A DNA stretch of 64,000 bases from a virus. Taxonomy: Duplodnaviria; Caudoviricetes. The stretch's first letter is position 1; the number at the start of each line of letters is the position of its first letter. Under the pieces are notes generated by a model, which worked only from the letters and a program-made list of their open reading frames with translations, was not told the DNA's origin and did not search any database. The position numbers and the translations under genes were made by a program. The stretch covers positions 1 to 64,000 of IMG/VR virus record IMGVR_UViG_2888055400_000002. One strand, written 5' to 3'. Positions 3,451 through 31,600 of this stretch are shown here, piece after piece.

Positions 3451-3454
3451 ATTT

Positions 3455-4962: not shown

Positions 4963-5097
4963 ACAGGCATTAAATAATATGAAGAAAGGAAAATAAAAAT
5001 GGATTACGGTTTAGCAATATCATTACTGTCCATATCAGTTATCGTTTGAATATAATTGTATTTTTCACTGGTACAATAATAGATAGGGGCAAAATTA

Positions 5098-15156: not shown

Positions 15157-15365
15157 ATCAAGACTTTCAAAAAACGACAGATTTTGATGAATATGAACTC
15201 TATAAGCGTTTAAAGTCTTGGTACGCAGAAGATATTGAACATGTCAACGAATGGCGTGAACAGGCGCGTGAAGATTTTGATTTTTATAATGGTCGCCAAT
15301 GGGCGGAAGAAGATCTTGCGGTTTTAAAAGAGCAACGCCGTCCTGTTATGAAGGCGCAGTATTAA
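15141..15365 (+). pseudogene. Portal protein N-terminal fragment (about 70 aa), truncated by the island at about 15351
   Basis: EWREQAREDFDFYNGRQW..LKEQRRPVM matches P22-like portal N-termini; immediately follows terL; sequence turns abruptly AT-rich and non-coding. Confidence 0.82.
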
Positions 15366-16036
15366 GAAAAACACAATAAAATCAATAGATTAAGTGTATT
15401 TATTTTATATGAATCCACTTAAGAATCCACACTTTTATGCACGATTCAATTGAACATTTTTTATAAACAATAGCCATCTATAAACAGAGCATAAAAAGCA
15501 AATCATGATGCCAATATTATAACGCATGGGAGCATTCAAATGAAATGCAAAGCAGTTATCATTCATAACAGGTCATAAATTTTATGATACGTTTTTATCA
15601 TAATAAATCGCATTGTTAAAACGCAATTGAATATGAGAGCTTTTTAAATGCAAAGATTTGAAATGTTTTCTTTTGAAAGGGATTAATCCAAATTTGGATT
15701 GGCTAATTTTAGTCACCTCAAATATGAGGGCATTGTTATTGATAGGTTTGAAAGCATCACAAAACTAATAGGCTTTTTTTATTCAAATGTGATGATCTAA
15801 AAGAGCGCTTTCAGAAGCATTCATTTATATTCTTTTGAATAAGTTTTTAATAAAGAGAATAGAGCACTTGCGATATTAATACATTTTGTATATACGTATT
15901 TATTCATTTGTTAATTTGTATTTTTTAGTTACATTTCATTTAAAAGCCGCGTCATATAAATTGGCACGGCTTTCTTTTTTGTACTTTTTTCTTTTGAGAT
16001 GGCATTAAACATAAAAAGCGCCCCCGCGTTTGTTGT

Positions 16037-16825
16037 TTATTCTTCTGTCTCAATTTTCTCAATAAGCTCCATAAGAATATCACTTTTGTAAACTTCCTTA
16101 TTTTGGGGAACCTCCTTAATCTTACTTTGTCTATTGAGAAGCGCCCTCCCATGGACACGACCCCAGACCTTAATAGTGTAAGAAACCTGAGCTTTTTCAT
16201 AAACAGAGCCATAAATTTCAGCACAGCCACTCACTTTTGCATAGCCATAAACCTTGCCATAGATTTTTGCACGGTTGTTAATAACAGCATGACCATAAAC
16301 ATGCGCATAATTAAAAAGACGGGCAGAACCTGAAACCCTCGCATTGCCATAGAGCCTTGCATAATCAAAAACACAACTATTATGAGAAAGATGCGCATTG
16401 CCATAAACATGCGCTTCAGAATAAACGCGGCTATTGCCATAAACACGAGCCTTGCCATAAACATAGCCATAGACATAAGCATTTTTAGAAACACGCGCAT
16501 TGTCATAAACTTTTGCATATTGAGAAATAAAAGCCTGATCACAAATTTGCGCATTGCCATAGACTTGACCACACACTTGAGACTGATGACGTATTTTTGC
16601 ATTCTCAGAAACACGGGCATATCCATAAACCCATGCATCATCATAAACCCAGCAGTTGCCATCATGAGAGAGATTGCTTTCCTTTTCAATAAAACCCCCA
16701 AGGTCCCCCACCTTGACATCATCGAAATTTCTTAAAGCACGAATGCGATAAAGCTTGGTAATTTTTTGAGTACTTTTATCTTTCAATTGTTTCATTTCAT
16801 TGGTTAATTTGTATTTTTTAGACAT
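16037..16825 (-). CDS. Hexapeptide-repeat (left-handed beta-helix) protein, array gene 5
   Basis: KKYKL..LYRIRALRNFDDVKVGDLGGFIEKESNLSHDGNCWVYDDA + (A-x-V-Y-G/D-N)n. Confidence 0.88.
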   Translation of the reverse strand: MSKKYKLTNEMKQLKDKSTQKITKLYRIRALRNFDDVKVGDLGGFIEKESNLSHDGNCWVYDDAWVYGYARVSENAKIRHQSQVCGQVYGNAQICDQAFISQYAKVYDNARVSKNAYVYGYVYGKARVYGNSRVYSEAHVYGNAHLSHNSCVFDYARLYGNARVSGSARLFNYAHVYGHAVINNRAKIYGKVYGYAKVSGCAEIYGSVYEKAQVSYTIKVWGRVHGRALLNRQSKIKEVPQNKEVYKSDILMELIEKIETEE

Positions 16826-16903
16826 AACAAACGCCTCACAATTTTGATTGTGTTAAAATTTGAATGGAAAATATTTGAAGGAGAGGGGCGCCCCCGCAGC
16901 ACC

Positions 16904-17416
16904 CTAGATGTTTAAAAGGGCTTTATTACGCAGCCAGAAAATTCTTAATTCATTATGAGAAAGCTGTTCGACATAAGCTCTTGTTTCAATATCATCACTT
17001 GTCTTTTCTAAAATCATAACCATGCCGTGAAGATTGGCATATTCACAAACATGGAGATGATTTATCACACGGGCATGATCATAAATTCTTGCATTGCCAT
17101 AGACATGAGCATGATCAAAAATGATAGCCTTTCCAAAAACGCATGCCTTTCCATAAACAAAACCAGCGATAACAGAGTTATTAAAAACCTTGGCATCTTG
17201 AGAAACATGAGCAGGGTTTAAAACCAGAGCATTATCATAAACCCAGCAATTGCCATCATGAGAGAGGTTATTTTCATTTTCGATAAAACCACCCAATTGA
17301 CCCGCCTTGACATCAGAAAAGTTTCTTAAAGCTTTAATGCGATAAAGGGTACGATTAGCAAAGAGACGCGTTTCATTTATAAATTCATATTTTTTAGTTA
17401 CAACTGTACTAGTCAT
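16904..17416 (-). CDS. Hexapeptide-repeat protein, array gene 4
   Basis: Same N-terminal motif, fewer repeats, different C-terminus. Confidence 0.85.
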   Translation of the reverse strand: MTSTVVTKKYEFINETRLFANRTLYRIKALRNFSDVKAGQLGGFIENENNLSHDGNCWVYDNALVLNPAHVSQDAKVFNNSVIAGFVYGKACVFGKAIIFDHAHVYGNARIYDHARVINHLHVCEYANLHGMVMILEKTSDDIETRAYVEQLSHNELRIFWLRNKALLNI

Positions 17417-17490
17417 GAGAAAACCCAATCTAAATAATTGCTAAAATTTGAATGAAAGAATTTGGAAAGCAGGCGCCCCCGCGCCGTTAT

Positions 17491-18178
17491 TTATGCTGCT
17501 TCATTTTCAACAATTTTTACAACGTTATCGCCTTCATAAACTTCATAATTTTTGCTAACCCAACATAAATCGCTACGTCTTTTTAATCTTGCATTGCCAT
17601 AGACCCTACCTCTAATCAAGAAATAACCAGAGACCCTAGCATTGCCATAAACAGAACCATGAACCTCAGTATGACACCCCACGCTAGCATTGCCATAAAC
17701 CTTGCCATAAATTTTTGCTGCTCCATTAACAACGGCATTATCATAAATTTGTGCTCTTTCTTTAATACGAGCAGAACCTAATACCCTAGCATTGCCATAA
17801 ACTATAGCATTATGAAAAACCCATGCTTTATTTGAAATATGAGCATTACCACAAACATGGGCATTCAAATAAATGCGGGTTTTATCACAAACATGGGCAT
17901 TGCCATAAACCAAACCACCGATAGCAGCATTGTCATAAACCCTTGCGTTTTCAAAAACACGACCAGGCTTTAAAACATATGCATTATCAGCAACCCAGCA
18001 ATTGCCATCATGAGAGAGATTACTCTCATCTTCGATACCCCCCCAATTGACCGGCTTTAATATCATCAAAATCTCTTAAAGCTTTAATGCGATAAAGGGT
18101 ACGATTACCAAAGACACGCGTTTCATTTGTGAGTTCATATTTTTTGGATACAATTTTAGATGCAGTTATAGTGGTCAT
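17491..18178 (-). pseudogene. Hexapeptide-repeat protein, array gene 3; frameshift at a G7 run near 18040
   Basis: ATG 18178 MTTITASKIVSKKYELTNE..KAGQLGG, then frame change to IEDESNLSHDGNCW. Confidence 0.82.
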
Positions 18179-18267
18179 AGGTTTTATCCCTAATTTAAAT
18201 AATGATTAAATTTTAATGAAAGTTAGAGGGGGGCGCCCCCGCCGCGCCTTTCATTTACGTTGCTTTT

Positions 18268-18777
18268 TTACAGATGGCACATCACAAATGAAATTTCACC
18301 ATAAGGAGAGAGACGCTCTGTATAAACATTTTCTCTTGTATTGCCATAAGCATTTTTAGTAACAACAGCCATGCCATAGGCACTTGCATTTTCATAAATA
18401 TGAACATTACTTATGATTTTTGCACTATCAAAAACCCGCGCGTTATCATAAACATGCGCATTGGCAAAAACCTTGGCAAAATCATAAACCTTGGCATTTC
18501 CATAAACAAAGCCACCCACAGAGGCATTGCCATAAACCCTAGCGTTTTCAAAAACACGACCAGGTTTTAAAACAGTAGCATCATCACCAACCCAGCAATC
18601 ACCATCATGAGAGAGGTTGCTTTCATCTTCAATAAAGCCACCAAGGTCACCAGCTTTAATATCACCAAAGTCTTTTAATGCTTTAATACGATAAAGTGTG
18701 TGATCACCCAATACACGGGTTTCATTTGTGATTTCATATTTTTTGGATACAATTTTGGATGCAGTTATAGCGGTCAT
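18268..18777 (-). CDS. Hexapeptide-repeat protein, array gene 2
   Basis: LYRIKALKDFGDIKAGDLGGFIEDESNLSHDGDCWV + repeats. Confidence 0.88.
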   Translation of the reverse strand: MTAITASKIVSKKYEITNETRVLGDHTLYRIKALKDFGDIKAGDLGGFIEDESNLSHDGDCWVGDDATVLKPGRVFENARVYGNASVGGFVYGNAKVYDFAKVFANAHVYDNARVFDSAKIISNVHIYENASAYGMAVVTKNAYGNTRENVYTERLSPYGEISFVMCHL

Positions 18778-18862
18778 AGGTTTACTCCTATTCTAAATAA
18801 TTAATAAATTTTGAATGAAAGGGTTTGGAAAGCAGGCGCCCCCGCCGCGCCCGCGCGTTTAT

Positions 18863-19654
18863 TTACGCAGCGTCTTTTATGGATTGATCATCACCACAAA
18901 TATCATCACGAATTTTTATATGGCTATTAACCACGGCGTTGCCATAAATTTTTACATGATGATCGATATTTGATTTTCCATAAACCTTTGCATTATCATA
19001 AATTCTTGAGAAGCAACCAACGCGCGCCGAGCCAGAGACCTTTGCATTTCCATAGACGCTTGCATAATCCTTAATCCATGCATTGCAAAAAACATGCGCA
19101 TTGTCATAAACAGAAGCATAGACATGAATACGTGATTTACCATAGATTTGTGCATTGCCATAAACATAGCCACAAACATGGGCATTATCATAGACCCTAG
19201 CATTGTCATAAATTTTTGCACCATCAGTAATAATAGCTTTATTGCAAACCACGGCATTACCAAAAACTTGCCCAGCGATTTTCGTATCATCATAGATTTT
19301 AGCATTCTCATAAATGCAAGCATCATTACCAAAAACCCATGCCTTTCCATTTATAGTAGCATTTCCATAAACCTTGGCTTGTCTAAAAACTTTAGATTCT
19401 TGATAAATTTTAGCATTCTCATAAAGCTTGGCATTCAAAAAAACCGCAGCATTGTCATAAACCCAGCAATTGCCATCATGAGAAAGGTTCTCTTCATTTT
19501 CAATAAAGCCCCCAAGGTCACCCGCCTTTACATCATCGAAATCCCTTAAAGCCCGAATGCGGTGCAAAGTAATTCCTTCAAAAGTGAAGTTTTCAGTTGT
19601 TAATTCATATTTTTTTGCAGAGATAACGGGGGTATTTTTTACTGTAGATTTCAT
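18863..19654 (-). CDS. Hexapeptide-repeat protein, array gene 1
   Basis: LHRIRALRDFDDVKAGDLGGFIENEENLSHDGNCWV + long run of hexapeptide repeats. Confidence 0.9.
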   Translation of the reverse strand: MKSTVKNTPVISAKKYELTTENFTFEGITLHRIRALRDFDDVKAGDLGGFIENEENLSHDGNCWVYDNAAVFLNAKLYENAKIYQESKVFRQAKVYGNATINGKAWVFGNDACIYENAKIYDDTKIAGQVFGNAVVCNKAIITDGAKIYDNARVYDNAHVCGYVYGNAQIYGKSRIHVYASVYDNAHVFCNAWIKDYASVYGNAKVSGSARVGCFSRIYDNAKVYGKSNIDHHVKIYGNAVVNSHIKIRDDICGDDQSIKDAA

Positions 19655-19702
19655 TTGAAATCCTTTCTAATCAAAAAGTTTTGAATTGACACCTATAAAG
19701 GC

Positions 19703-19783
19703 GCCGGGTGTTCAAAACACGGTGATTAGTCCGTTGCTTACACTTTTCCCATAAGGGTATTGTATGGTGTAAGCACACCCGAC
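19703..19783 (-). ncRNA. Putative P4-CI / P1-C4-like antisense immunity RNA (about 81 nt cloverleaf)
   Basis: Outer stem 19703-10/19776-83, inner stems TGCTTACAC/GTGTAAGCA and ACGG/CCGT; loop and bulge are complementary to flanking sites 19667-19685 and 19864-19882. Confidence 0.72.
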
Positions 19784-19895
19784 AAAATCTTCATATACTA
19801 ACAAGAGTATAAAAGATAGCCAGTTTTAAAAGGTTTTGGAAAGGTTGTTACGTAACCTATCCGCTAATCATAAGTGTTTTGATCACTTGATTATT

Positions 19896-19924
19896 TATAT
19901 ACAAAAATACGTATTTATTGTCAA
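19896..19924 (-). promoter_or_regulatory. Putative sigma70 promoter for the antisense RNA leader and hexapeptide operon
   Basis: TTGACA (19924-19919)-N17-TATATA on the minus strand. Confidence 0.55.
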
Positions 19925-20545
19925 TTATATTTTGCTATTTTTTGTATTTTTTTATGATTATTTTTTATCATATTGTGTATAAATATGCGTCATATGCCTA
20001 TGAATATTTTCTATTTTATTGCGTTTATTTGACTCTATATTACGCAATGGCGTTATTTTTCTCTTTTAAACTTCATAACAACTAAAAACGCTTCTTATGA
20101 TGATTATTTTTATCTTTATAAAGCATGGTTATTTTATTGAATGCCTTGTGAATATTTTTGTGAATTTTGTTATCATTTATAAGAGCTTTGTAACTTAAGA
20201 AGCTTTAATAGAGATCGCATTTTTATAACCAACCCTTTTGATTCATTCTCTATAGCCACCGCATCATTTTTATATCAAAGGATAATAAGATAATGCGGTT
20301 TTTATCTGTTATAAGAAGATATATAGATACCTATTGAATTCTTATATCCTTATCAAAATACCTTTTAAGGGGCTTTTGTCTCTTTTGTTAGTTTTGTCTG
20401 TAAATCTTAACAAACAATTCTTATGATTTTAGTGAGTGTTTAAACCCATATCTTATGAGAAGGCATATGGCTCTTTAAAGCCTTTCAAAAGAGAGTGTGT
20501 AATTATGAAAGGTGCTATCAAGATTATTATCGTTATTAGTTTTAA

Positions 20546-20741
20546 GGATTTTGGAGGTTTTGGGGGTTTTGGGGGTGCCTGTCTCATTTTTCTTTTAATT
20601 TTTTTCAATAAAAAATAAAAATCATTATATTTCAATATGTTATTTTTTACCAATTTTCAAAAACAACCTATTTCCATAATACAACCTATAAATACAATCA
20701 ATAATATATGTTTTGTAGGGGTTTTGGGGGTATAGGGGGTG
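20546..20741. repeat. Two clusters of 9-bp G/T-rich direct repeats (iteron-like) flanking an AT-rich spacer
   Basis: GGATTTTGG-AGGTTTTGG-GGGTTTTGG-GGGTG at 20546-20577; GTTTTGTAG-GGGTTTTGG-GGGTATAGG-GGGTG at 20710-20741. Confidence 0.7.
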
Positions 20742-21101
20742 TTTTTTTGCTTTTTTAAAAATGAAGGAATTAAAAGCGTAAAGTGATATCAACATTCACT
20801 GTTTTCTTTAAAGAGAGCGTTTGAAAGATATGATGGCATCATCTTAAATTGCGCGTTAATCTTTTAAAGGCAATGTAAACAAATCTCATTCTGTTTAAGA
20901 TGGGATTTCTTAAAAGCCTTAAAGCAATCCAAATGAGAGTGTTTAAAAGTGCAAGGCTTCTCTTTTTAGAAGATCGCATGATAAATCGTTCCTTTAAGAT
21001 TGTACATAATCATCTTTAACAAGAGAGTATAGATATAAACTCTATACCCCTTGTAAGATGTGCATACCCATCATGTAAAATGTGAGCATGCTTTCTTAAG
21101 T

Positions 21102-24100
21102 CTATTCAGTTTCTCTTAATTCCAATTTGGGGAGGTTCTTAACAATCTTCATTGTTTCTAAACTTACCGTAATAACCCTTTGAAACAATTCCAATGGATA
21201 AGCAGGGTTGCCAATGGTTTCAACCGCATAGCAATTGGCATCATTAACAATGCCACTCTTTTTATCAGTCTTTACGCATTGCCGACCCATAACCCATTCA
21301 AGAGCGGGCTTGCCATTTACGATATACTCATAAGCTTCAAGAGGGATATCTGTTATTGTGATATTATTGTTATAAAAAACAGTAGTTTTATCTTTTTCCT
21401 TACTATTGCCAGCAAATTTCATTTCTGTAACATAATAGAATTTCTCAGGGTTCTTGATATCTGTAAGTTTTGGATTGCCTTTTTTAAAGGTCACAGGATA
21501 AGGTTCTACAGTTTCATAATTGACGTGCAAATTGCCTAATTCACGCCCTGCTGTAACAAACATCCAAAAATCTTTAGCACTCTTTACGCAAGGGATGCGA
21601 GGGAGCTCTTTAGAGAGGTTATCAGCATAGCGAGCACGGTAATCTTCCGAGTGTAAAATCCCGTAAACATAATAGAAGATATCATCCTTAGTTATGGTTT
21701 CATTAGGATAAGCAGCTTTAAAATGTGCTAATCCTTCATCAGTGATGGCATCACGGCGTTGTAAACCAGAGGTTTTGATTTCTTCTGTAGAATTTGTAAA
21801 TAAATGAGATTGGCTATTACTTCTATTTTTTGAAAGTATAGTATCTTCGTAAAGGTACAATGAAAAACATTGGCTACCACATCTATCATATTCAAATCAG
21901 GTAAATTTTTACTCATCAAAGCAGAAAAACCACTTCGTGCTCCTGTTCCTGTAATTTGTATTACTCTATTATCAACCACTTTTCCCATAGGGAATATACG
22001 AGGCATTTGATAAACCATTTCATTGAAAGTACGATTGTAATAGAGCCATTGTCGTGTAAAAGGACGGTAAAGCTTTGAACTAAGCAATTGTTTTCAAAAT
22101 TCAAAAACTTTTCCTTTAACTAATTGCTGTTTAAGTGCACGACTCCAACTAATTTTTTGTGCATCTGAATTGACAAAAATTATTTACAGCATTTGCACGT
22201 GTTTTATGTTCAGAATGTAAATAGGTATTATTAAAGCGTTCTACTTCGTTATTATAGAAGGCAATCATGTTAGTCATGTTTTTCACTAAAGATTCACGGC
22301 TTGAGTTATATACCCAAACATCACGATTTGTTACCAGCCCAAGAGAGAAAGTTCAAAGAGCTTTTATCATGACCTTTCTTAATACCCATAGCTAGGAATG
22401 TTTCAAAACTGTCATCACGTTGATTTACCAATCACCATGTTTGTCTGGTGTAATAGTTCCAACTTGATTTAGCCGCATACCATCAACACTACTAAGGTAA
22501 TCAGAACGGTGAGTTTTTCTTTTGTTGTAAGATTATTGCCGATATCATGGTAGTAAATTTTACAAGGTTTAGAAACATTAGGATTTTTGATAAATAATGT
22601 TACAGCAATACCGGTCATACTACCATTACCAAAAATATTTTCACCTTCTTGAGCCTTCCCATTGCTTAACATATTTTTGCGAATATCCCCCCGCAAATTA
22701 AGCACATAAATGCTCGTAAATTCTTTGGCTAAAGATTTTCGCAAGCCATCCATTGCTGGTTTTTCTATATAACCAGAACCAGAAACAAAGCCGATAATCC
22801 CAGCATTACTAATACGATCACTTGCCCAACGAATAGCACGAATGTAACTATCATACAAAGCTTGCATATTGGTTGCTTTCGATTGAGCAGCATAAGTCTC
22901 ACGAATACGGTCATCTAAAAGTGGATAAGGAGTGTTTTTTGCGTTGTCATTTTCACTTTTTTGTCTCAAAGAATAAGGAGGATTACCAAAGATAACTTCT
23001 ATATTCAGCTTTTTTTGAAGTTCCAAATAGGCGCTGTTTTCTTCTAGTAACCCTTTCATCAGATCTTGCTTTTCAACCCTCTGAAACGTATCGGTTAATC
23101 CAATATGCTTAAAGGGAATATAATCTCCTTTCATAAGACCATGATAGGTTGCTTCAATATTTATGGCTGCTATGTAATAGGCAAGGCAAAACAATCTCAT
23201 TGGCATGGATGTCATGACGGAATTTATACTCCATATCTTCCGGTTTTATCAGATCTGATTGTAAAAGCCGTGTGATAAAGGTACCTGTTCCCGTAAAGGG
23301 ATCAAGAATAGAAACACCACGGGAGCCCAAACTCTTGCAAATTCTTTGCGTAAAACATCATCAACGGAATGAATGATAAAATCCACAACCTCAACAGGGG
23401 TATAAACAATCCCAAGTCTATCTGTTGTCGTTTTAAATGCCTTGGCAAAAAAGCTTTCATAAAGCGTAATAATGAGATTTTGTCTTGCTTGCGGGGTCGT
23501 AATACCAGAGGCACGTAATTTTACACTGTCATAAAACTCTCTAAGATCCTTTGACTCTTCTTCAATATTTGTCTTGTCTAATTCCTTTAAAATCTTATCC
23601 ATTGCTTGCGAGATGGTATTGTTTTGAACAAATTCATTGCCATCAAACAAACTTCAAACACAGGGCGCGTTACAAGATGCTGTGCTAACATCTCAACTGC
23701 TTCTTCTTGGTTTAATATCACTGTTTAAATTGTTCTTTAATTCAAGATGAAAGCTCTCAAAGGCATGAGAGGCTTCACTCTTTTCATCAGAGAGCATGTT
23801 TTGAAGACGGTTGATATGGTTTTGAGCAATCTCAGCAACATTGCCAGCCCAGTTTTCCCAATAATCCGCAATAGCAAATTTCTTCGTTAGAAGGGTTATG
23901 AGAGCATTACGGAACTCCTTAAAAAAGGGTAATCTTCCTTGTACTCCAATACTCTTAGAAGGTTCATAGGCTGGTTTTCCAATTTTTAATCCCACACTTT
24001 CTGATTTCTCATGGATTGAGATTTTATCTTCAACAGCCGTCATACTGTCTAAGGCAAGAATCTCTAGGGTATGACTTACATCTTGCCCTAAAATCATCTG

Positions 24101-26074
24101 GTTAAGGATAACTTCAAAATTCTCATCATGAGCAAGCAAAGCATTGATCACTTGCCAAACAACCTTGTATCTCTTGTTGTGTCTTAAAGCTTGCTCAGCA
24201 GAAATCCCCGCAGGAACTCCAACGGGTAGAATGATATAACCTCTCTTTTTTCCTTTGGCACGACGCATGATACGTCCCACCGCCTGTATGACATCAACAT
24301 GACTTTTGCGGGGATGGAGAAACATGACCGCATCAAGAGCAGGGACATCCACACCTTCAGAGAGACAACGAACATTGGTTAAGACACGGCAGGTATTTTC
24401 CCCCGCATCTTCTTTAAGCCAGTCAAGAGCTTGATTACGTTTTTTTGCACTTTGTTTTCCGTCAATATGTTCAAATCTACAATGAAGAGGGGAGGTCTTT
24501 TTATAGCTTTCATAAAGAGTCCGTAATTCATCCTGAATTTCATCAGAATTAAAGGTATCACGAATGCGTTCAGAGGTTTTAATATCTTTACAAAAAGCCA
24601 AAGCACGGCGCATGGGATTAGGGTCATCACTGAGATCAACCTTCAGATCGATTTTACTCAGAGCTTGATAACAGCCCACAATCTTTGTCTTATCATCAAG
24701 AATAAGTTCATAATTATCATCGGTCATAAGATGTTGAATGGATTGGGCTACTGCTTCTTCATTCACACCCAAAACAATAATCTTATAAGGTGCTAAAAGG
24801 TTATTCTGAACGGCTTTTGAAAAGGTATAAGTATAAAGGTTTTTGCCATAGAGCTCTTCATCATCCATAGAAGCCAGAACAGCATTAATCTCATTGGCTT
24901 GTTTCTTGGCATTATCGGTAAAGATCTTTGGAGTTGCCGTCATATAGAGACGTTTTTTGCCTTGTATAATGCTGTTGTCATGAACCTTGACAAATTCAGA
25001 TTCACTGTTGTCTGTACCCAACACAGCACCCGTGGTTCTATGGGCTTCATCACAAATGATCAGATCAAATTCAGGTAAATGATATTTCTTTTGAGCATCC
25101 GATATCACTTGGATTGAATGATAAGTTGAAAAGATAACAGTCATGACATCAGCAGAAGTCTTATTGGCTTTGCTAGCAAGCTGTTTTGCATCTGTTGTAG
25201 CAGGCAGGGCAAGATCAGAAGTATCAAGACCAGCATCATCATCTTGGTTTTTACGCCGCTTGCCAACTTGTGTATCAGAACATACAGCAAAGGAACGCAA
25301 GGGTACCTCTGTATCACTTGTCCATTCTCTTATCGTTTGAGACATGAGAGCAAGAGAAGGCACTAAAAACAAAACACGCTTACCTTTTCCGGCTATTTGT
25401 TCTGCTATCTTGAGACTGGTGAAGGTTTTTCCCGTTCCACACGCCATAATCAGCTTGCCACGGTCTGCTTCTTGTAAACCCTCACAAACAGCTTCAAGGG
25501 CTTCTTTCTGATGATCTAAAAGCTTTTTCTTCGTTTGCTCTTTAAGGACAACCGTTTCTTTTCCTTCAAAACGACTCCAATCGATTTGACTGTTTTCTAA
25601 ATCAAACAAATTAATCTGTTGAATGCGAACTTCTTGACCTTCACAGGTGTGAGAAGCATTATCACTCCAATCACTTTCCGTGCTATCGATAAGAAGTCGA
25701 CGGGTGAAGATCTTTTTGCCAGAGGCAGCAATAAAACTATCAATATCTTCTTTTTTAATGCAATGGGAAGCATTATAGCATTTACATTGAATAGCAACAT
25801 AGCCTCCTTCATCACGAATTTTAGCGACTAGATCAATGCCAATATCCCGTCCATCTTCTCCACGCTCTTTAGCCCATTCACAATAAGTTTGAACCTGTTC
25901 ATATTCTTGGCATTGCAGAGGATCTTGCGTCAAATAAGCCATGACAAGGTTTTCAAAGAGAGTTCCCAATTCACGGGGTGATTTTGCTTTTTGACGGTAG
26001 GATTGTAAGAGAGAGCGTAAAGAAGATTGTTTGTAATCAGACTTGAGGGTTTGAAGCATTATGAGAAACTCCAT
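21102..26074 (-). pseudogene. Type ISP (LlaGI/LlaBIII-like) restriction-modification enzyme: Mrr-type nuclease + SF2 helicase + N6-MTase + TRD; many frameshifts
   Basis: GIDLVA..AIQCK nuclease; MACGTGKT, DEAH, TATP, QAVGR helicase motifs; GIVYTP, GNPPY MTase; YIVNGKPALEWV C-terminal domain; split over at least five ORFs. Confidence 0.9.
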
Positions 26075-26380
26075 AGTCTTATGACATTAATTTATTACCT
26101 TCGAAAGAATCGAAATGGAGTTTATTAAATACATTTAGAACAAATATCGAGTCTGAAATGGGCGAAAACCGCCAAAAAAGCTATAAAATGCGTCAAAAAA
26201 ATTTAACAAGATGCAATCAAGATGCATTTATAAACAGCCTATAAAAAGTAAACTACTGAAATTTGCTATTCATTTTACGTCAATCAAGACGACTCCAATA
26301 TGTGCCTTTAAAAGTTCAAATATGCAATTTTGAAGAGTTTTATGATCACTCTAACCATAAAGAATTGTCAGTTAAGATTT

Positions 26381-26888: not shown

Positions 26889-28655
26889 TTGTTTTTGGGA
26901 TTTTTACGCCAAAGTTCTCTTTTGAGAATTTTTCGTGCCATTTTTGTTTTATTGGGCATGTTTACAGGTGTAAGTGTTTATGCGCGCTCCTTAGCTTTTT
27001 TACACTCCCCTACAGATAATTTTTCTCGCCAACAATCTGAGAAGCAACGATTAGAAAGAATTGAGAATTTACGCGCTTTAACGCCTAAAAGGATCAAGAC
27101 GCCTTCAGAGCAAAATCCAGAAACGCTTTTGGGTGGGAAACAATGTTTTCCAATTCATGCTATTGTTGTTGAGGGAGTGCATCATGTCAAAAAGCGCTCT
27201 ATATCAGCCGTAACAGAGCCTTATGTTGGAAGATGTATCGGTCTTGTCGATATTCAGCTCTTAATCAAGCAGTTAACCAAAGTTTATTTGGATCAAGGCT
27301 ATGTGACGGCGCGTTTTTATATTCCTGATCAAGATATCAAAAATAGCAAGACACTCAAATTTGTTGTTGTTGAGGGAAAGCTTTCAGATATTTATTATAA
27401 TGGTTTACCGGCATCTCGTTATAACACTGTTGTGTGGAGCGCTTTTCCTGGGCTTAAAGGTCATGTTCTGAACATGCGCGATATTGAACAGGGGCTTGAT
27501 CAGATCAACAGACTTCAGTCAGCGCATGCCAAAAGTGAACTTCTACCGGGGCGTGAAGATGGTGGTACCATTGTTAATATTAGCAATCACCCTGAGAAAG
27601 CTTTTAAGGTTACTGTTTCTCATGACAATATGGGGCAATCCTCCACCGGTTATGCGCGTTATAGTGCAGGCTTAAAGGGTGAAAATATTTTAGGGATGAA
27701 TGATGCGTGGGATTTTGGTTATCAACGCAGTGAGACAGATTATTGGGGTGGGAGCAAGCAAGAAGGACATAGCAATAATTTTTCAGCGAGTGTGAGTATT
27801 CCTTACGGTTATTGGACTTTTGGATTGAATGGCACTGTTTATAATTACCAAAGCATTATCCCTGGCAATTTTACCGATATTGAGACGACGGGGGATTCCA
27901 GTGAGTTACACGCCAGTACAAGCAGGGTTCTTCACCGCGATAGTGTTTCGCTTACAACCTTGAATTTAGGTCTTTCTTATAAAAGAACCAACAATTACCT
28001 TCTTGGCAATAAGATAGAGGTTGGTAGCCGTCAATATAGCGTCGCTAATTTTGGGATTTCGCATTCGCGCCAGATGTTGGGTGGGACATGGACCTTTGAT
28101 GTGAGTTATTTGCAAGGGCTCCCCTTGTTTCATTCAGTAAAGAAACATGCTCCAGGGGCAGGGGATGGCGAGCCACAATTTTCTAAATTTACCGGCACAC
28201 TTAGTGTCATGACGCCTTTTAAGGTAGGGGGCTTGGATTTTATACTGAGCAATCTTTTGAGTGGTCAATATTCCCCGCATAATTTATTGGGTGCGGAACA
28301 GATTTCGTTGGGTGGCGCTTCCAATGTTCGTGGAACGCGTGAGAGTTTGCTTTTTGGCAATAATGGTTTTTTTAGCCGTAATGATTTGTCTTTGCGCACC
28401 ATTCCGTGGAGCAACAGCGCTTCTCTGAAAAAGGTTTTGGGGGAACTTCGTCCCTTTGTTGGTTTGGACTATGGGCGTGTGTTTTCGCAAGCCTTGTATG
28501 GAATGACCGGTGAACAGCTTGCCGGTTGGACAGCAGGTGTCAAGCTTGCGGGGGGCATGGTCTCTCTTGATGCCAGTTATTCCAGTATTTTTTGGAGCAC
28601 AGTTAAGCACAAAAAATCAGGAACATTTTTTATGACATTAACAATGGAACTTTAA
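26889..28655 (+). CDS. fhaC: Two-partner secretion transporter (ShlB/FhaC/HecB; CdiB-like)
   Basis: POTRA CFPIHAIVVEG..YLDQGYVTAR..VVEG; IEQGLDQINRL; loop-6 variant VRGT; immediately upstream of a TpsA gene. Confidence 0.93.
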   Translation: MFLGFLRQSSLLRIFRAIFVLLGMFTGVSVYARSLAFLHSPTDNFSRQQSEKQRLERIENLRALTPKRIKTPSEQNPETLLGGKQCFPIHAIVVEGVHHVKKRSISAVTEPYVGRCIGLVDIQLLIKQLTKVYLDQGYVTARFYIPDQDIKNSKTLKFVVVEGKLSDIYYNGLPASRYNTVVWSAFPGLKGHVLNMRDIEQGLDQINRLQSAHAKSELLPGREDGGTIVNISNHPEKAFKVTVSHDNMGQSSTGYARYSAGLKGENILGMNDAWDFGYQRSETDYWGGSKQEGHSNNFSASVSIPYGYWTFGLNGTVYNYQSIIPGNFTDIETTGDSSELHASTSRVLHRDSVSLTTLNLGLSYKRTNNYLLGNKIEVGSRQYSVANFGISHSRQMLGGTWTFDVSYLQGLPLFHSVKKHAPGAGDGEPQFSKFTGTLSVMTPFKVGGLDFILSNLLSGQYSPHNLLGAEQISLGGASNVRGTRESLLFGNNGFFSRNDLSLRTIPWSNSASLKKVLGELRPFVGLDYGRVFSQALYGMTGEQLAGWTAGVKLAGGMVSLDASYSSIFWSTVKHKKSGTFFMTLTMEL

Positions 28656-28680
28656 GCGTTTTTTATTGGGGAGTTAACGT

Positions 28681-31600
28681 ATGAGATATGAGAAGAGAGC
28701 AAACAGAGCAGCTTTATTAGGTGTTTTAGTCTCCAGTACGATGCTCAAAAAGGTTTTTCTAGGTGGGATAGGTTTTTCTTGTTTGTTAGCACCTTCAGTG
28801 GTTCAGGCGCAAATTACTTCTGATCCTAACGCAGGTAGCGCATATCGTCCGGATATAGTGGCAGCGCCCAATGGGGTTCCCTCGATTGATATTGTCACAC
28901 CCAACGGCAAGGGCTTATCGCACAATAAATATTACGATTTTAATATTGGCAATCTAGGTGTTATTTTCAACAATCATGCGCAAGAAGTAGGGCAATCGCA
29001 GTTGGGGGGCATTATGCCGGGCAATCCGCATTTGCGTTTCACGGGTTCAGCGAAAGTGATTTTAAATGAAGTGACCAGCGGTAAACGCAGCGCGCTTAAT
29101 GGTCCAGCGGAAGTTTTTGGGCGCCAAGCTGATGTGATTATAGCCAATCCCAATGGCATAAGTTGTGATGGTTGTGGTTTTATCAATACGCCCCATGCGA
29201 CCTTAACCACGGGTGTCCCCGAAATTGATGCGAGTGGTTTTTTGAAAGGCTTTGAGGTGCGAGGTGGGGACATCACCTTTGGAGCAAAGGGAGCCAATTT
29301 TTTCTCTGGCAAGGGGGCTGTTGATATTGTTGATATTGTTTCACGCACGGTGCATTTTGAAGGAGCTGTTGCGGGCAAGGATATTGGGGTGAGTGCTGGG
29401 ACGGGGCATTTTGATTATGCTTCTCGTCAAATGAAGGAGCTCACCGATATTACCGGCAAACCGGAATATGCGATAGATGGGTCAGCTTTAGGGGCTCTAC
29501 AGGCGGATCAGATTAAACTTGTAGCGACAGAACAAGGCGTTGGCGTTCGGATGCGTCATGATATGGCGGCGAATGCGGGGCAGTTGCAGCTTTCTGCTGA
29601 TGGAAAAATTTCCTTAAAAAATGTTTTTGGTCATGGGGGTGTTGTTCTTCAATCAAAGAGCAAGAGCGTGTTGGCAAAAAGCGTCACATCGAAAAAACAT
29701 ATTGAGATTGCAGCCAAAAAAGATGTCACATTAGAGATGGTTGGCGCCGATGGTGATTTGAAAGTAGAGGCGCAGGGGGGGCTTTTATCGATTGCAGGCA
29801 AGGCAACATCTGGAGGCAATATGGAGTTGTTTTCGCTTGATGCTATGAAAGTTTCTGGTCTTGGTTCTGGTGCTGATATAGCTCTTGAAGCGGGTGGAGA
29901 TTTGAAGCTTGAGGGGGTCGTGTTAGCTGAAGGAAACCTTAAGGCACATGCTGGTGGTGATATCCAAGCTGGTCTTTTAGCTGGTGGGGTTGATATGGCA
30001 GCAACGGGTGCTGCTGGTGTTGTTGTTCTTGGTGCCCAAGGAGATGTTGATCTTCAAAGTGTGGGAGGGAGAATTAACGCCGCAAACATTTATGGGGCAG
30101 GAGATGTGACCCTAGTTTCGTATGATGGGCTTTTTGTTTCCCAATCGATATTGTCTCACCAAAATGTAGCAATCCATGCACAACTAAACACAAATGCCCC
30201 TGTTCATTTTGGACAAGTTTTAGCCTATGGCAAGGCCAATATTGAGGGTGGGGCGGTTGATTTTGCTTCGCTGATGACGGGCGGTGATGCCGTTTTAACG
30301 GTAGGCAGCCTTGATGCAGGCACACTGATGACAGGTTTAGATTTTGTTAGCTCTCAAGTGAGCCCTTCGAATCCTTCCGGTGCTCTTGTTTTTTATGACA
30401 AAGGTTCCCTTTCTATCACGGCACAAAGGGGCATAAAGGTTGAACATATTATCAGTGGTGGCAATATTGATCTTTTTGCTGGCGACGACATTTATTACGA
30501 TCAGGTCATTGGCTATGGCACAGCAACATTGACATCGGTATCAGGAGGGATCAGTGTTGAGAATGTGCTGTCTGCTAAGGGGGATGTGAGATTGACAGCA
30601 AATACTCTCGATTTAAGCAATGATCGTTCTCATATTTACACGCCGCAAACGTTATTTTTAAATGCGGATCATATTTATGTTTCGGGCAGCACGCTGATTT
30701 ATGGCGGTTTAGATTTTAACAGCACCAATGTTCTTGATATTCACCATGCACGGCTACAAGCCATTACCACTGAGGGGGGAACAGGAGATATTCTCTTTGT
30801 TGCTCCAGGCGTTATGGTGGATGAGACTACATCGGTTTTAGCGGCACGAGATTTTGTGATCAAAACGGGCCGTTTAGAGAATAGCGGTCAATTAGCAGCA
30901 GGGCAGGATTTAGCCTTTAGCGTGACGGGGGATGTGACCAACAGCAAAACGGGCTTAATTTATGTGAAGGGCAATGGTGCTCTCAAAGTTGATGGCACTG
31001 TGTTGAATGATTTTGGCGCCATAATAGCAGAGGGTGATTTGTTTTTTACCAATGCAGATGGCACAGGAAAGAGCCTTTCCCTTGTCAATAAAGCAGGCTT
31101 TATTCAAGCCGGTGGCAACTTAAATATCCAAACCAACACCCTCAAAAACGAAGCCGATAGCACGCCTGTTATCACGGAAAAAACGGAATATAGCGATATT
31201 TCATTCGAAAGATCAAAGGGTTCTGATCAGCTCAGTGATGGGATGTTATATCATGATACGAGATTGAATAGCTGGGGCAAAGGAAAGCTTTCTAAGTGGC
31301 CGGTATTGAGTGACACGAAGAACTTTATATTTAAACAGCAGATTTGGGCGAGCAAAGAAGAAACCTATGGCAAAACAACATTGAAAGACGGAACAGTTTA
31401 TAAGGCATTTACTTGGGAATATAATGATAACAGAAAAGGCATAGAACAGTATTCCTGGAATGGTGATAGATGGAGAGAAGGATTCTTGGGGCTCTCGTTC
31501 CTAAACGAAAACTGGTCACACATGACAGAAGAAACTGTCACGCAAGAGTTTTCGCATAAACCCACTGTTTCGGGGATGATAGAGTCTCACGGCAATCTGA

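What the first reader, a model, noticed from the sequence alone, without database searches (positions are those of the whole stretch)
19655..19924. Hidden P4-CI/P1-C4-type antisense RNA switch controlling the hexapeptide array
Seen on the minus strand, in order: a promoter; site A TCAAAACAC-TTA-TGATTAG (19882-19864); an ~81-nt cloverleaf (19783-19703) exposing CTAATCA in a loop and GTTTTGAA in a bulge; and site C TTCAAAAC-TTTT-TGATTAG (19685-19667) running into the AAAGGA RBS of the first array gene. Sites A and C are both bipartite complements of the RNA. Established: this is the seqA/seqB/seqC logic of satellite P4 CI RNA, and similar to P1 C4, which normally silence kil/replication or icd-ant genes. 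Inference: an RNA-immunity switch here gates five beta-helix genes, so they would be expressed only transiently on entry into a naive cell or on induction. This is the best candidate for an undescribed system in the window.
Basis: partly seen in the sequence, partly recalled or inferred. Interest (0 to 1): 0.88.

Follow-up and report, generated by a model that had tools for sequence, protein, structure and literature searches.

The report
C4-type antisense RNA switch, Bartonella island
A small folded RNA of a known family sits between two copies of its own target sequence in front of five beta-helix genes on a Bartonella mobile island, laid out like the immunity RNA of phage P1, and it most likely blocks translation of those genes.

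Summary
The three-part layout is real and far beyond chance. The bipartite word occurs three times in 64 kb, at site A, the RNA and site C (0.01 expected).

Rfam calls the cloverleaf sRNA-Xcc1 (RF02221, 54.6 bits, cut-off 53), not C4. A second copy outside the window (74188-74277) has a different loop and junction, and both of its target sites changed to match.

Among 121 distinct homologues (Bartonella genomes and IMG/VR contigs, 37 loop words), 114 carry the exact complement of their loop upstream and 107 downstream. Non-cognate controls give under 1%.

One public RNA run shows minus-strand transcription from about 19880. The cloverleaf is about tenfold enriched and has a sharp 3' end at 19703. 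The mRNA continues into gene 1.

So this works like P1 C4 or P4 CI. It is very probably the published Bartonella "Brt" RNA family, there read as a riboswitch.

What is new is the cargo. Homologues drive AntA (53) or Rha (22) antirepressor-type genes, and 35 drive YdcK-like beta-solenoid genes, as here. The host element is a satellite-like island.

Transient expression of the array is untested. First-stage readers of this scan noted both copies in this genome, and C4-like switches on other DNA.

The parts
19896..19924 (-). Sigma-70-like promoter: TTGACA (19924-19919), 17-nt spacer, TATATA (19901-19896)
   Evidence: Read. The same hexamers and spacing are kept in the YdcK-class homologues. RNA depth is about 55 upstream and rises downstream, with a cluster of 41 molecule ends at 19880. 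The consensus scan did not list it.
19864..19882 (-). Site A (upstream target or decoy): box b1 TCAAAACAC 19882-19874, spacer TTA, box a1 TGATTAG 19870-19864
   Evidence: Duplex with the RNA's loop and junction is -21.4 kcal/mol, against -7.7 for the other copy's RNA. In 121 homologues, 114 have the exact complement of the loop 7-mer upstream, mostly at -104 to -106. Covariation is shown. In the fold of the whole leader, site A pairs in cis with the loop and junction.
19842..19858 (-). Small conserved leader hairpin just after site A (AGGTT / AACCT)
   Evidence: Present in the minimum-energy fold of the leader. The stem positions co-vary by eye in alignment A1. Not counted formally.
19703..19783 (-). 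81-nt cloverleaf antisense RNA: 9-bp outer stem, hairpin 1 (conserved AUACAAUACCC...GGG), hairpin 2 (ACGG/CCGU stem with an 8-nt loop), and a single-stranded 3' junction
   Evidence: Rfam RF02221, 54.6 bits against a cut-off of 53. Fold z -4.2. The outer stem is 99.7% paired, and 5 of 8 pairs in the hairpin-1 stem change on both sides. In RNA run X2, depth is 1920 to 5380 here against 230-450 in the leader, and 1045 molecules have their end at 19703.
19723..19729 (-). Recognition box a' (CUAAUCA) in the hairpin-2 loop
19711..19720 (-). Recognition box b' (GUGUUUUGAA) in the 3' junction; its first two bases lie in the hairpin-2 stem
19667..19685 (-). Site C (target on the mRNA): box b2 TTCAAAAC 19685-19678, spacer TTTT, box a2 TGATTAG 19673-19667, directly before the ribosome-binding site
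   Evidence: Duplex is -16.6 kcal/mol, against -6.7 for the non-cognate RNA. Among homologues, 107 of 121 have the exact complement of the loop 7-mer downstream at about +47 to +53. Only 1 of the 10 elements without a downstream gene keeps it.
19652..19666 (-). Shine-Dalgarno AAAGGA (19666-19661) and the ATG (19654-19652) of the first YdcK-like gene
16037..19654 (-). Cargo: five YdcK-like beta-solenoid genes (18863-19654, 18268-18777, 17491-18178 with a frameshift, 16904-17428, 16037-16825)
   Evidence: ORFs. Pfam PF18836 matched in 5 of 5, with scores 70.2, 30.0, 61.8, 28.0 and 44.8 against a cut-off of 30. NCBIfam YdcK_fam matched in 5 of 5 but far below its cut-off of 350. PHROG 5070 and 7964, function unknown, E down to 3e-81. 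The closest solved structure is YdcK, 2f9c/2pig.
15941..16028 (-). Terminator-like hairpins after the last array gene: GC stem with a T-run at 16028-16013, and a second hairpin at 15974-15941
   Evidence: Folds of the intergenic stretches. The four internal spacers have GC hairpins without a T-run.

Best explanation
**What it is.** This is a C4-type antisense RNA switch, a cis-encoded and trans-acting 'immunity' RNA.

**Shown by RNA reads.** A promoter at about 19924-19896 drives a minus-strand transcript from about 19889-19880. The transcript runs through site A, the cloverleaf and site C into the first of five YdcK-like genes. The 81-nt cloverleaf (19783-19703) accumulates as a discrete, stable RNA with its 3' end at 19703.

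**Shown by covariation.** The hairpin-2 loop (CUAAUCA) and the 3' junction (GUUUUGAA) are a two-box address. The address is matched by site C, directly 5' of the ribosome-binding site, and by site A in the leader.

**Inferred.**
- The free RNA pairs with site C and blocks ribosome loading on gene 1. The downstream genes of the operon are probably affected through polarity.
- In the unprocessed leader, site A pairs in cis with the same two boxes. A fresh transcript is therefore self-masked and translatable.
- As a result, the cargo is made when the element enters a cell that lacks the RNA, and it is shut down once the RNA has built up.
- The second copy in the record carries a different address, so the two islands do not cross-repress.

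The RNA belongs to Rfam family sRNA-Xcc1. It is very probably one of the Bartonella 'Brt' RNAs. The element carrying it is an integrase / primase / DUF3987 / Type ISP restriction island inserted in a prophage gene.
For: **In the window.**
- The bipartite word occurs 3 times, at A, the RNA and C, against 0.01 expected. It occurs nowhere else in the 82-kb record.
- The cloverleaf has fold z -4.2 and matches RF02221 at 54.6 bits against a cut-off of 53.

**Copy 2.**
- It lies at 74188-74277(+), 45.9 bits.
- Its loop is CUUGAUG and its junction GUUUUCAA. Its sites A and C read TTGAAAAC...CATCAAG, so all three sites changed together.
- Cognate duplexes are -16.6 to -22.4 kcal/mol. Non-cognate duplexes are -6.7 to -11.8.

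**121 distinct homologues with full flanks (144 before removing duplicates).**
- The exact complement of the loop 7-mer lies upstream in 114, downstream in 107, and in both in 103.
- There are 37 loop words and 81 loop-plus-junction combinations.
- Non-cognate pairs match in 138 of 19416 upstream and 51 of 19416 downstream.

**Covariation.** On alignment A1, the helix of site A with the loop is 97.7% paired. Five of its 7 pairs change on both sides, in 38-67 of 120 sequences each. The whole structure beat 500 of 500 shuffles on cells paired and on covariation score.

**Comparison with P1.**
- The annotated record has promoters, a1/b1, c4 (77 nt), a2/b2 and icd in the same order and with similar spacing.
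- The Rfam C4 consensus has the same topology: outer stem, two hairpins, 7-nt 3' junction.

**Cargo of homologues** (motif rules).
- AntA-like 53, Rha-like 22, YdcK-like 35, none or short 10, unclassified 1, of 121.
- Pfam confirmed AntA in 5 of 5 sampled proteins, with the KilAC (ANT) domain too in 2 of them.
- Pfam confirmed Rha in 8 of 8 sampled proteins, with KilAC too in 2 of them.

**RNA run X2.**
- Depth on the strand expected for a minus-strand RNA is about 55 upstream of 19894, 230-450 over the leader, and 1920, 5380 and 5240 over 19785-19705.
- 1045 molecules have an end at 19703, and 41 at 19880.

**Leader fold.** In the fold of the 246-nt leader, site A pairs with the loop and junction (-74 kcal/mol, z -6.3).

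**Distant members.** Two distant RF02221 members have the same three-site layout by reading: a Nitrosomonas MAG at 79.6 bits and an alphaproteobacterial MAG at 50.9 bits.
Against: - No functional test exists for this locus.
- In run X2, depth over gene 1 (about 360-820) is no lower than over the leader (230-450). The RNA does not visibly stop transcription into the array in that sample.
- That library is oligo-dT primed, comes from one study, and contains reads from paralogues. For example, insertions at 19750 and 19752 appear in 716 and 1270 of about 5000 reads. Levels are therefore rough.
- In this copy the a2 box ends 1-2 nt before AAAGGA rather than overlapping the SD, as it does in most homologues.
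- The column count for site C on alignment A1 failed, because the window row is shifted by 3 columns (32.8% paired at slide 0, and 256 double changes at slide +3). Site C therefore rests on the anchor-free count.
It is a sample, nearly all from one genus.
- The C4 covariance model does not match.
- The 5' end of the small RNA and any RNase P step were not resolved.
Confidence: 0.75

Rival explanations
1. The pairing acts as in satellite P4. Binding of the RNA to sites A and C causes premature transcription termination, directly or through Rho, rather than a block of translation. This would also fit the low trp transcription reported downstream of Brt RNAs.
For: Tu et al. report high Brt and uniformly low downstream trp reads in B. 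henselae. The review reports that deleting the 3' part of brt1 raises trp1 transcription (PMC5387305, Results read; PMC8070961, passages). In run X2, depth falls from about 5300 to about 980 right after 19703.
Against: In run X2 the depth over gene 1 (360-820) is at least that of the leader before the cloverleaf (230-450). The drop after 19703 therefore looks like the edge of a stable processed RNA, not a loss of read-through. No intrinsic terminator was found in 19400-20300 (0 found). The a2 box abuts or overlaps the SD in nearly all homologues, which points to ribosome occlusion.
Confidence: 0.12
2. It is a cis-acting riboswitch or thermometer-like attenuator that senses a ligand or condition, as proposed for Brt1 (heme, temperature, pH). 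No RNA-RNA recognition is involved.
For: This is the published proposal for the probable same family. The review cites a gfp reporter behind brt1 that brightened as heme fell (PMC8070961, passages).
Against: The exposed loop is the most variable part (37 words among 121 elements), and it co-varies with two flanking sites. A ligand pocket would be conserved and would need no matching copies. The review itself reports that pH and temperature gave no effect. The same layout in P1 is a proven antisense system (annotation).
Confidence: 0.05
3. Its main job is as a trans-acting small RNA on distant host genes, as claimed for sRNA-Xcc1 in Xanthomonas and for Brt1 on badA. The flanking matches would be secondary.
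For: The RNA is abundant. Other authors describe family members as trans-acting or virulence-linked: passages in PMC12189769 and PMC7313666, and the abstract and Results of PMC5387305.
Against: The only full bipartite matches in the 82-kb record are the element's own two flanks. The address changes from copy to copy together with those flanks, which is not expected for a conserved host target. The rest of the host chromosome was not searched for targets.
Confidence: 0.05
4. It is an addiction module of the RNA-antitoxin kind. One or more of the beta-solenoid proteins is toxic, and the stable RNA keeps it silent, so loss of the island kills or arrests the cell.
For: Known C4/CI-controlled operons start with toxic genes: icd in the P1 annotation, and kil in P4 (recalled). 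The RNA is far more abundant than the mRNA.
Against: An antitoxin should be less stable than the toxin message, yet here the RNA looks like the stable species. Nothing shows toxicity: there were no PADLOC hits in 5 of 5 proteins, and the family is of unknown function. One of the five genes is already frameshifted.
Confidence: 0.03

Closest known systems
C4 antisense RNA of phages P1/P7 with its a1/b1 and a2/b2 sites (immI operon c4-icd-ant; Rfam RF01695 and RF03163)
   Same: The order is the same: promoter, upstream target pair, folded RNA of about 80 nt, downstream target pair at the RBS, cargo. The RNA topology is the same: outer stem, two hairpins, single-stranded 3' junction. One address box sits in the hairpin-2 loop and the other in the junction. 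The addresses vary between heteroimmune relatives. Many homologues of this RNA drive antirepressor genes.
   Different: The C4 or c4-a1b1 models do not match, even at E<=10. The conserved core is different (AUACAAUACCC...GGG in hairpin 1). The cargo here is five YdcK-like genes, with no icd and no ant. Most AntA- and Rha-class homologues also have a near-consensus promoter placed to start at the first base of the cloverleaf (consensus, by eye). Processing by RNase P was not tested.
CI RNA of satellite phage P4 (seqA / seqB / seqC)
   Same: There are three related sequences, with the middle one inside a stable processed RNA. The host element is a satellite-like island with integrase and primase. 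P4 details are recalled, not fetched.
   Different: P4 CI acts by premature termination of the operon that holds its replication genes. Here the primase and DUF3987 genes lie in another transcription unit, and reads continue into the cargo.
Rfam family sRNA-Xcc1 (RF02221), first described in a Xanthomonas campestris integron
   Same: The window copy passes the family's curated cut-off over the full model (54.6 against 53).
   Different: The papers I could read describe family members as trans-acting or virulence-linked small RNAs (passages in PMC12189769 and PMC7313666). None mentions flanking target sites. The original paper (Chen et al. 2011) is not held. Many Bartonella copies fall below the cut-off. 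In three genomes only 4 of 33 matches passed, and 38 of 71 genomes have at least one copy over it.
Brt1-9 ('Bartonella regulatory transcripts') upstream of trp genes in B. henselae (Tu et al. 2016, PMC5387305)
   Same: The genus matches. The family is multi-copy, with 0 to 43 matches per genome in 71 genomes, against 0 to 34 in their Table 1. The size fits: 5' end at about 19889-19880 to 3' end at 19703 gives about 180-190 nt, against 194-203. The 3' part is the most conserved. Each copy sits directly before a small DNA-binding-type gene that has no promoter of its own. The copies lie in prophage-rich regions.
   Different: They call the family genus-specific and propose a riboswitch plus trans action on badA. 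Here the family is tied to RF02221 members outside the genus, to a C4-type mechanism, and to a second cargo class that they did not describe.

Membership tests
Rfam RF02221 (sRNA-Xcc1) | Covariance-model score at or above the curated gathering score (53 bits) over the full model | tested here: met
   54.6 bits, model positions 1-87 of 87, at 19695-19783(-). Copy 2 scores 45.9 bits, which is below the cut-off.
Rfam RF02221 (sRNA-Xcc1) | Outer stem enclosing two hairpins, with a conserved AUACAAUACCC...GGG hairpin 1 | tested here: met
   Alignment to the model. Minimum-energy fold. Pair counts: outer stem 99.7% paired, and 5 of 8 hairpin-1 stem pairs change on both sides.
Rfam RF01695 (C4 antisense RNA) and RF03163 (c4-a1b1) | A match to the covariance models | tested here: not met
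   Neither appears among the 8 matches at E<=10 in 19400-20200. The same search finds both in P1, at 68.8 and 51.0 bits.
C4/CI-type antisense immunity switch (functional class) | Two exposed boxes of the RNA are complementary to a bipartite site at the ribosome-binding site of the next gene | tested here: met
   In homologues, 107 of 121 have an exact match downstream.
C4/CI-type antisense immunity switch (functional class) | A second copy of the bipartite site lies upstream in the same transcript | tested here: met
   114 of 121 homologues have it. The helix is 97.7% paired with covariation.
C4/CI-type antisense immunity switch (functional class) | A small stable RNA is released from a longer precursor (RNase P in P1 and P4) | tested here: inconclusive
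   There is about tenfold enrichment of 19785-19705 and a sharp end at 19703 in one RNA run. The 5' end and the enzyme were not resolved. An internal promoter is an alternative in many homologues (by eye).
C4/CI-type antisense immunity switch (functional class) | Repression of the cargo depends on the pairing, and relatives with other boxes are heteroimmune | not testable with these tools
   Only energies are available: cognate -16.6 to -22.4 kcal/mol, non-cognate -6.7 to -11.8.
C4/CI-type antisense immunity switch (functional class) | The cargo is an antirepressor, kil or replication operon | tested here: not met
   The window cargo is YdcK-like. The feature is met in 75 of 121 homologues by motif (AntA-like 53, Rha-like 22), and Pfam confirmed 13 of 13 sampled.
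Bartonella Brt RNA family (Tu et al. 2016) | Sequence identity or similarity to Brt1-9 | not testable with these tools
   The coordinates and probe are in supplementary tables, which are closed. The match rests on genus, copy number, size and position.
YdcK family (NCBIfam NF040481; Pfam PF18836 repeat) for the cargo | Whole-protein score at or above the curated cut-off | tested here: not met
   NF040481 scores are 64-123 bits against a cut-off of 350, in 5 of 5 proteins. The PF18836 repeat is at or above its cut-off of 30 in 4 of 5 (70.2, 30.0, 61.8, 44.8) and below it in 1 (28.0). These are relatives, not equivalogs, of YdcK.

The most novel reading that the evidence does not exclude
The YdcK-like beta-solenoid proteins are a new class of antirepressor or early anti-host effector. 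They fill the slot that AntA-KilAC and Rha-KilAC antirepressors fill behind the same RNA switch in sister elements. Under this reading, a satellite-like island carries an array of five diversified paralogues so that, in the short window before its address-coded RNA shuts them off, it can act on several different helper prophages or host targets. It would also follow that the whole sRNA-Xcc1/Brt family is a natural library of dozens of orthogonal C4-type RNA repressors, not riboswitches or virulence sRNAs.
Probability: 0.2. Interest if true: 0.8.

Novelty: new variant of a known kind. Interest (0 to 1): 0.55.

Why it matters
1. **It re-reads a published virulence-regulation story.** The Bartonella Brt/Trp pairs were presented as genus-specific riboswitch-plus-regulator circuits controlling badA. 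They look instead like phage immI-type modules: an address-coded antisense RNA in front of an antirepressor-type gene, multiplied up to about 40 times per genome.

2. **It gives the Rfam family sRNA-Xcc1 a concrete, testable mechanism.** It links that family to C4 and CI by design. Curated models do not do this, because the family is in no clan.

3. **It offers a natural set of orthogonal two-box RNA repressors.** The sample holds 37 loop words and 81 loop-junction combinations, which is useful for synthetic control.

4. **It gives the first functional clue for a widespread phage protein family of unknown function.** The family (PHROG 5070 and 7964, YdcK-like) is found by tblastn in 96 phage records. 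The clue is that these proteins are interchangeable with antirepressors behind this switch.

Tried and rejected
**Searches and counts that gave nothing usable.**
- The Rfam C4, c4-a1b1 and isrK models found no match at E<=10 in 19400-20200.
- blastn (distant mode) of 19640-19930 against the phage collection found no match.
- PADLOC found no family for 0 of 5 array proteins.
- The column-based covariation count for site C is invalid, because MAFFT shifted the window row by 3 columns. I used the anchor-free count instead.

**DNA-mimic idea for the cargo.** The pI values of the ten proteins in the two arrays run from 4.7 to 9.4, so they are not uniformly acidic. I dropped the idea.

**YdcK-like genes in named phages.**
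- In Mannheimia phage 587AP2 the gene sits in the recT/exonuclease early operon.
- In Xanthomonas phage CP1 it sits beside an RNA polymerase gene.
- No RNA switch is annotated at either, and I did not scan them with Rfam.
- The RNA-cargo link is therefore shown only for the Bartonella set.

**Sequencing runs.**
- No RNA holder was listed by the index.
- Three raw-read RNA runs came in as additions by species label. Only X2 matched closely (7874 of 11860 laid reads at 99% or more).
- X3 and X4 matched mostly at 90-95% and in part only, so I set them aside as relatives.

**Papers.**
- Chen et al. 2011 (the sRNA-Xcc1 paper) is not held. What I say of it comes from other papers' citations.
- Searches for print linking Brt or Bartonella to C4-type RNAs: 'C4 antisense RNA' gave 26 papers, 22 of them listed, and none of the listed titles concerns Bartonella.
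- 'Bartonella' + 'antirepressor' + 'antisense RNA' gave 1 unrelated paper.
- 'Bartonella regulatory transcript' gave 3 papers.
- 'YdcK' gave 18 papers, with none on function judging by title and abstract.
- These searches cover only the held library.

**Supplements.** They would settle the Brt identity.

**Not attempted.**
- Structure prediction or complex prediction of the cargo.
- A target search for the RNA in the rest of the host chromosome.
Full report
**What is in the sequence.** Read on the minus strand, the stretch holds the following, in order:
- a promoter-like TTGACA (19924-19919), 17 nt, then TATATA (19901-19896);
- site A, TCAAAACAC-TTA-TGATTAG (19882-19864);
- a small hairpin;
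- an 81-nt cloverleaf (19783-19703);
- site C, TTCAAAAC-TTTT-TGATTAG (19685-19667);
- AAAGGA, and the ATG at 19654 of the first of five beta-solenoid genes.

The cloverleaf folds into an outer stem and two hairpins. CUAAUCA lies in the second loop and GUUUUGAA lies unpaired before the closing strand (-35.6 kcal/mol, z -4.2, 0 of 200 shuffles as good). The bipartite word TCAAAAC-N2-8-TGATTAG occurs three times in the 64-kb window, at site A, at the complement of the RNA, and at site C. Shuffles give 0.01. It occurs nowhere else in the 82-kb record.

**Database identity.** Rfam, at its curated thresholds, finds two RNAs in the window: a tRNA at 661-733, and sRNA-Xcc1 (RF02221) at 19695-19783(-), 54.6 bits against a cut-off of 53. 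A permissive scan of 19400-20200 lists 8 matches at E<=10. Only RF02221 is significant. The C4, c4-a1b1 and isrK models do not appear. The variable, lower-case positions of the RF02221 consensus coincide with the loop and junction words.

**A second, differently addressed copy.** The window is the first 64 kb of an 82,063-bp provirus record.
- RF02221 finds a second element at 74188-74277(+), 45.9 bits, below the cut-off.
- It has the same promoter, spacing and cloverleaf. Its loop reads CUUGAUG and its junction GUUUUCAA.
- Both of its flanking sites read TTGAAAAC...CATCAAG. Five loop positions and one junction position have therefore changed together in all three places.
- Predicted duplexes are -21.4 and -16.6 kcal/mol (copy-1 RNA on its own A and C) and -22.4 and -18.4 (copy 2 on its own). 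The four crosswise combinations give -6.7 to -11.8.

**Homologues and covariation.** I scanned with a pattern from the conserved core.
- The virus collection gave 21 IMG/VR loci.
- The genome collection gave 120 stretches.
- The core of window copy 1 is identical to a contig of Bartonella vinsonii subsp. vinsonii, and copy 2 is identical to another contig of the same assembly. This places the host.

Of 144 elements with full flanks, 121 are distinct. Among these:
- The exact reverse complement of the last seven loop bases lies within 160 nt upstream in 114, mostly at -104 to -106.
- It lies within 110 nt downstream in 107, at about +47 to +53, and in both places in 103.
- There are 37 different loop words, 9 junction words and 81 combinations.
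- Pairing the loop of one element with the flanks of another element that has a different loop gives a match in 138 of 19416 trials upstream and 51 of 19416 downstream.
- For the junction 7-mer the figures are 105 upstream, 99 downstream and 87 both, of 121. The non-cognate figures are 278 and 468 of 17609.

On a MAFFT alignment of 121 sequences:
- The helix between site A and the loop is 97.7% paired, and 5 of its 7 pairs change on both sides in 38 to 67 of 120 distinct sequences.
- The outer stem is 99.7% paired, and 5 of 8 hairpin-1 stem pairs show double changes.
- The whole structure exceeded all 500 shuffles in cells paired and in covariation score, and all six slid versions.
- The same count for site C is not valid, because the window row is displaced by three columns there.

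Two RF02221 members from outside the genus show the same three-site arrangement when read by eye. One is a Nitrosomonas MAG (79.6 bits) and the other an alphaproteobacterial MAG (50.9 bits).

**Expression.** The index listed no RNA holder, but three raw-read RNA runs came in under the same species label. I laid them on 19300-20100, and run X2 matched closely (7874 of 11860 reads at 99% or more). On the strand expected for a minus-strand RNA in a stranded library, depth runs as follows:

| Region | Depth |
|---|---|
| Upstream of 19894 | about 55, equal on both strands |
| 19867-19893 | 76 |
| Leader | 230-450 |
| Three bins covering 19785-19705 | 1920, 5380, 5240 |
| 19678-19704 | 978 |
| Gene 1 | 360-820, with a cross-mapping peak near 19435-19488 |

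- 1045 molecules have their end at exactly 19703, the last base of the outer stem, and 41 end at 19880.
- Reads from paralogues are present. Insertions at 19750 and 19752 appear in 716 and 1270 of about 5000 reads.
- The library is oligo-dT primed and comes from one study, so the levels are rough.

The run shows three things: the promoter is active, the cloverleaf accumulates as a discrete species, and transcription continues into the array.

**Comparison with P1.** The annotated P1 record lists two promoters, a1 (48255-61), b1 (48269-76), the 77-nt c4 RNA (48343-48419), a2 (48423-29), b2 (48452-59) and icd from 48470, followed by ant. Rfam's C4 consensus is an outer stem, two adjacent hairpins and a seven-base single-stranded junction before the closing strand. 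That is the topology found here, with one address box in the second loop and the other in the junction. The design is therefore the same, while the covariance models do not cross-match. A paper on Acinetobacter describes a multi-copy set of C4-like RNAs in one genome (PMC5320573, passages). A Xylella paper's table shows sRNA-Xcc1, C4 and isrK hits side by side in one region (PMC12189769, passages).

**What the switch drives.** I classified the first gene behind the 121 elements by motif:

| Cargo class | Elements | With site A | With site C |
|---|---|---|---|
| AntA-like | 53 | 50 | 50 |
| YdcK-like | 35 | 34 | 34 |
| Rha-like | 22 | 21 | 21 |
| No gene or under 40 aa | 10 | 8 | 1 |
| Unclassified (a cut YdcK-like start) | 1 | 1 | 1 |

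- Pfam confirmed AntA in 5 of 5 sampled proteins, with the KilAC (ANT) domain too in 2 of them.
- Pfam confirmed Phage_pRha in 8 of 8 sampled proteins, with KilAC too in 2 of them.
- The pattern for the ten gene-less elements shows that site C travels with the cargo.

The window's five proteins:
- They carry the YdcK beta-solenoid repeat and match YdcK_fam far below its cut-off.
- They match PHROGs 5070 and 7964 of unknown function.
- Their only clear solved relative is the hypothetical protein YdcK, 2f9c/2pig.
- They have no PADLOC match.
- tblastn finds relatives, all under 60% identity, in 96 phage records of many hosts, annotated as hypothetical or by fold.
- In Mannheimia phage 587AP2 the gene lies in the early recT/exonuclease operon.
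- Their pI values range from 4.7 to 9.4.

The third gene is frameshifted. GC hairpins without T-runs follow the internal genes, and terminator-like hairpins follow the last one.

**Context.**
- Positions 15353-26346 are an inverted copy (78-96% identity) of 78739-67564.
- The right-hand unit has an integrase, a primase split over two ORFs (DUF7146 and Toprim), a DUF3987 protein, an intact 1666-aa Type ISP restriction enzyme, the RNA switch and five YdcK-like genes. It ends next to an Mtd-like tail-fibre fragment and a lysozyme.
- The left-hand unit abuts an 83-aa start of a P22-type portal gene after the terminase gene. Its restriction gene is broken into several ORFs.
- These are two copies of a satellite-like integrative island inserted in prophage genes, as first-stage notes e1-6201586 and e1-6201584 proposed. 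Both arrays are transcribed outward, towards the island end.

**Relation to the Bartonella literature.** Tu et al. (PMC5387305; abstract and Results parts 1-2 read) describe the Brt RNAs as follows:
- There are nine highly expressed Brt RNAs of 194-203 nt in B. henselae, most conserved at the 3' end.
- Each lies directly upstream of a small helix-turn-helix 'Trp' gene that is poorly transcribed.
- Copy numbers run from 0 to 34 across Bartonella genomes.
- They call the family genus-specific and propose a riboswitch plus trans action on badA.
- The words phage, antirepressor, Rfam and RNase P do not occur in the text.

A review adds that deleting the 3' part of brt1 raises trp1 transcription (PMC8070961, passages).

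RF02221 finds 0 to 43 matches per genome in 71 Bartonella genomes. Fifty have at least one match, and 38 have at least one over the cut-off. In three genomes only 4 of 33 matches passed the cut-off. Genus, copy number, size (about 180-190 nt from the 5' end to 19703) and position all fit, so this is very probably the same family. The identity could not be shown by sequence, because the coordinates are in closed supplements. In the held library I found no paper that links Brt or Bartonella to C4-type RNAs.

**How it most likely works.**
- Shown: the layout, its covariation, transcription of the whole unit, and accumulation of the cloverleaf.
- Inferred: the free RNA pairs with site C and keeps ribosomes off gene 1.
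- Inferred: in the full leader, site A pairs in cis with the same boxes (fold of 246 nt, -74 kcal/mol, z -6.3). New transcripts are therefore self-masked and translatable until processed RNA has accumulated.
- This gives a burst of cargo on entry into a naive cell, followed by silence, as in P1.
- A termination mechanism of the P4 kind is less likely here, because reads continue into gene 1 at the level of the leader.
- Riboswitch, purely trans-acting and addiction readings are weaker, for the reasons given under rivals.

**Verdict.**
- The finding is real and the mechanistic reading is well supported, but the RNA is not undescribed.
- It is a member of a catalogued family, works like a textbook system, and is probably already published under another name with another interpretation.
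- The new points are the unifying reinterpretation, the large natural set of addresses, and the YdcK-like arrays in the antirepressor slot of a satellite-like island.
- First-stage readers of this scan noted both copies in this genome (e1-6201579, e1-6201588).
- Follow-up agents reported C4-like switches with other cargo on other DNA (e1-5467074, e1-5330715, e1-5092743). I did not check those.

Noticed in passing
G000:C1:74090-78054 (outside the window; L002 and L147): This is a second complete switch with a different address: loop CUUGAUG and junction GUUUUCAA, with matching sites at 74090-74109 and 74296-74315. It sits in front of another five YdcK-like genes. The first of those has a very acidic Tyr/Asp-rich tail (pI 4.7).
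   Followed up: yes
window 15353-26346 versus G000:C1:78739-67564: An 11-kb inverted repeat (78-96% identity) marks two copies of an integrase / primase / DUF3987 / Type ISP restriction island, inserted in opposite orientation into prophage genes. One lies after an 83-aa P22-type portal start, and the other lies next to an Mtd-like tail-fibre fragment.
   Followed up: partly
window 21102-26074 (-): The Type ISP restriction-modification gene of the left island is broken into at least five ORFs (793, 133, 248, 119 and 252 aa). The right island has one intact 1666-aa gene (67818-72818) with Mrr_cat_2, helicase, coupler, methylase and Type_ISP_C domains.
   Followed up: partly
window 17491-18178 (-): The third array gene is frameshifted. 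Its conserved N-terminal 50 codons (18026-18178) are in a different frame from the body (17491-18069).
   Followed up: no
alignment A1, columns about 103-150 (window 19812-19784): Most AntA- and Rha-class homologues have a near-consensus TTGACT-18-TATAAT promoter, placed so that transcription would start at the first G of the cloverleaf. In the window copy and other YdcK-class copies a 4-base insertion spoils the spacing. The small RNA may therefore be made directly in some elements and by processing in others.
   Followed up: no
window 16826-18870, intergenic spacers of the array: Each of the five stop codons is followed within about 25 nt by a GC-rich hairpin with a GGGG-containing loop. Only the last has a T-run. 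The role of these hairpins is unknown (RNA stabiliser, processing site or recombination site).
   Followed up: partly
window 26889-45112 (+): This is a two-partner-secretion-like locus. It has a 588-aa transporter-like ORF and a 2710-aa exoprotein-like ORF, followed by repeated C-terminal pieces and small lipoprotein-like ORFs (direct repeats 32835-37301 versus 40715-45190, 84% identity). It was only listed as ORFs and repeats and was not searched.
   Followed up: no
L067:3418-3505 (-) and L057:6987-7069 (-): RF02221 members in a Nitrosomonas MAG (79.6 bits) and an alphaproteobacterial MAG (50.9 bits) also have the complement of their loop and junction words upstream and at the ribosome-binding site of the next gene. 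The three-site logic is therefore probably a property of the whole Rfam family.
   Followed up: partly
Bartonella genomes G001-G071: RF02221 matches range from 0 to 43 per genome. Many copies score just under the curated cut-off (in three genomes, 4 of 33 passed), so routine annotation will miss a large part of this family.
   Followed up: partly
window 45705-46871 (-) and 63026-64192 (+): Two 388-aa integrase genes lie in inverted orientation (45187-47046 versus 64707-62851, 92% identity). They flank the prophage structural genes at 47-63 kb. Recombination between the inverted islands could invert that segment.
   Followed up: no
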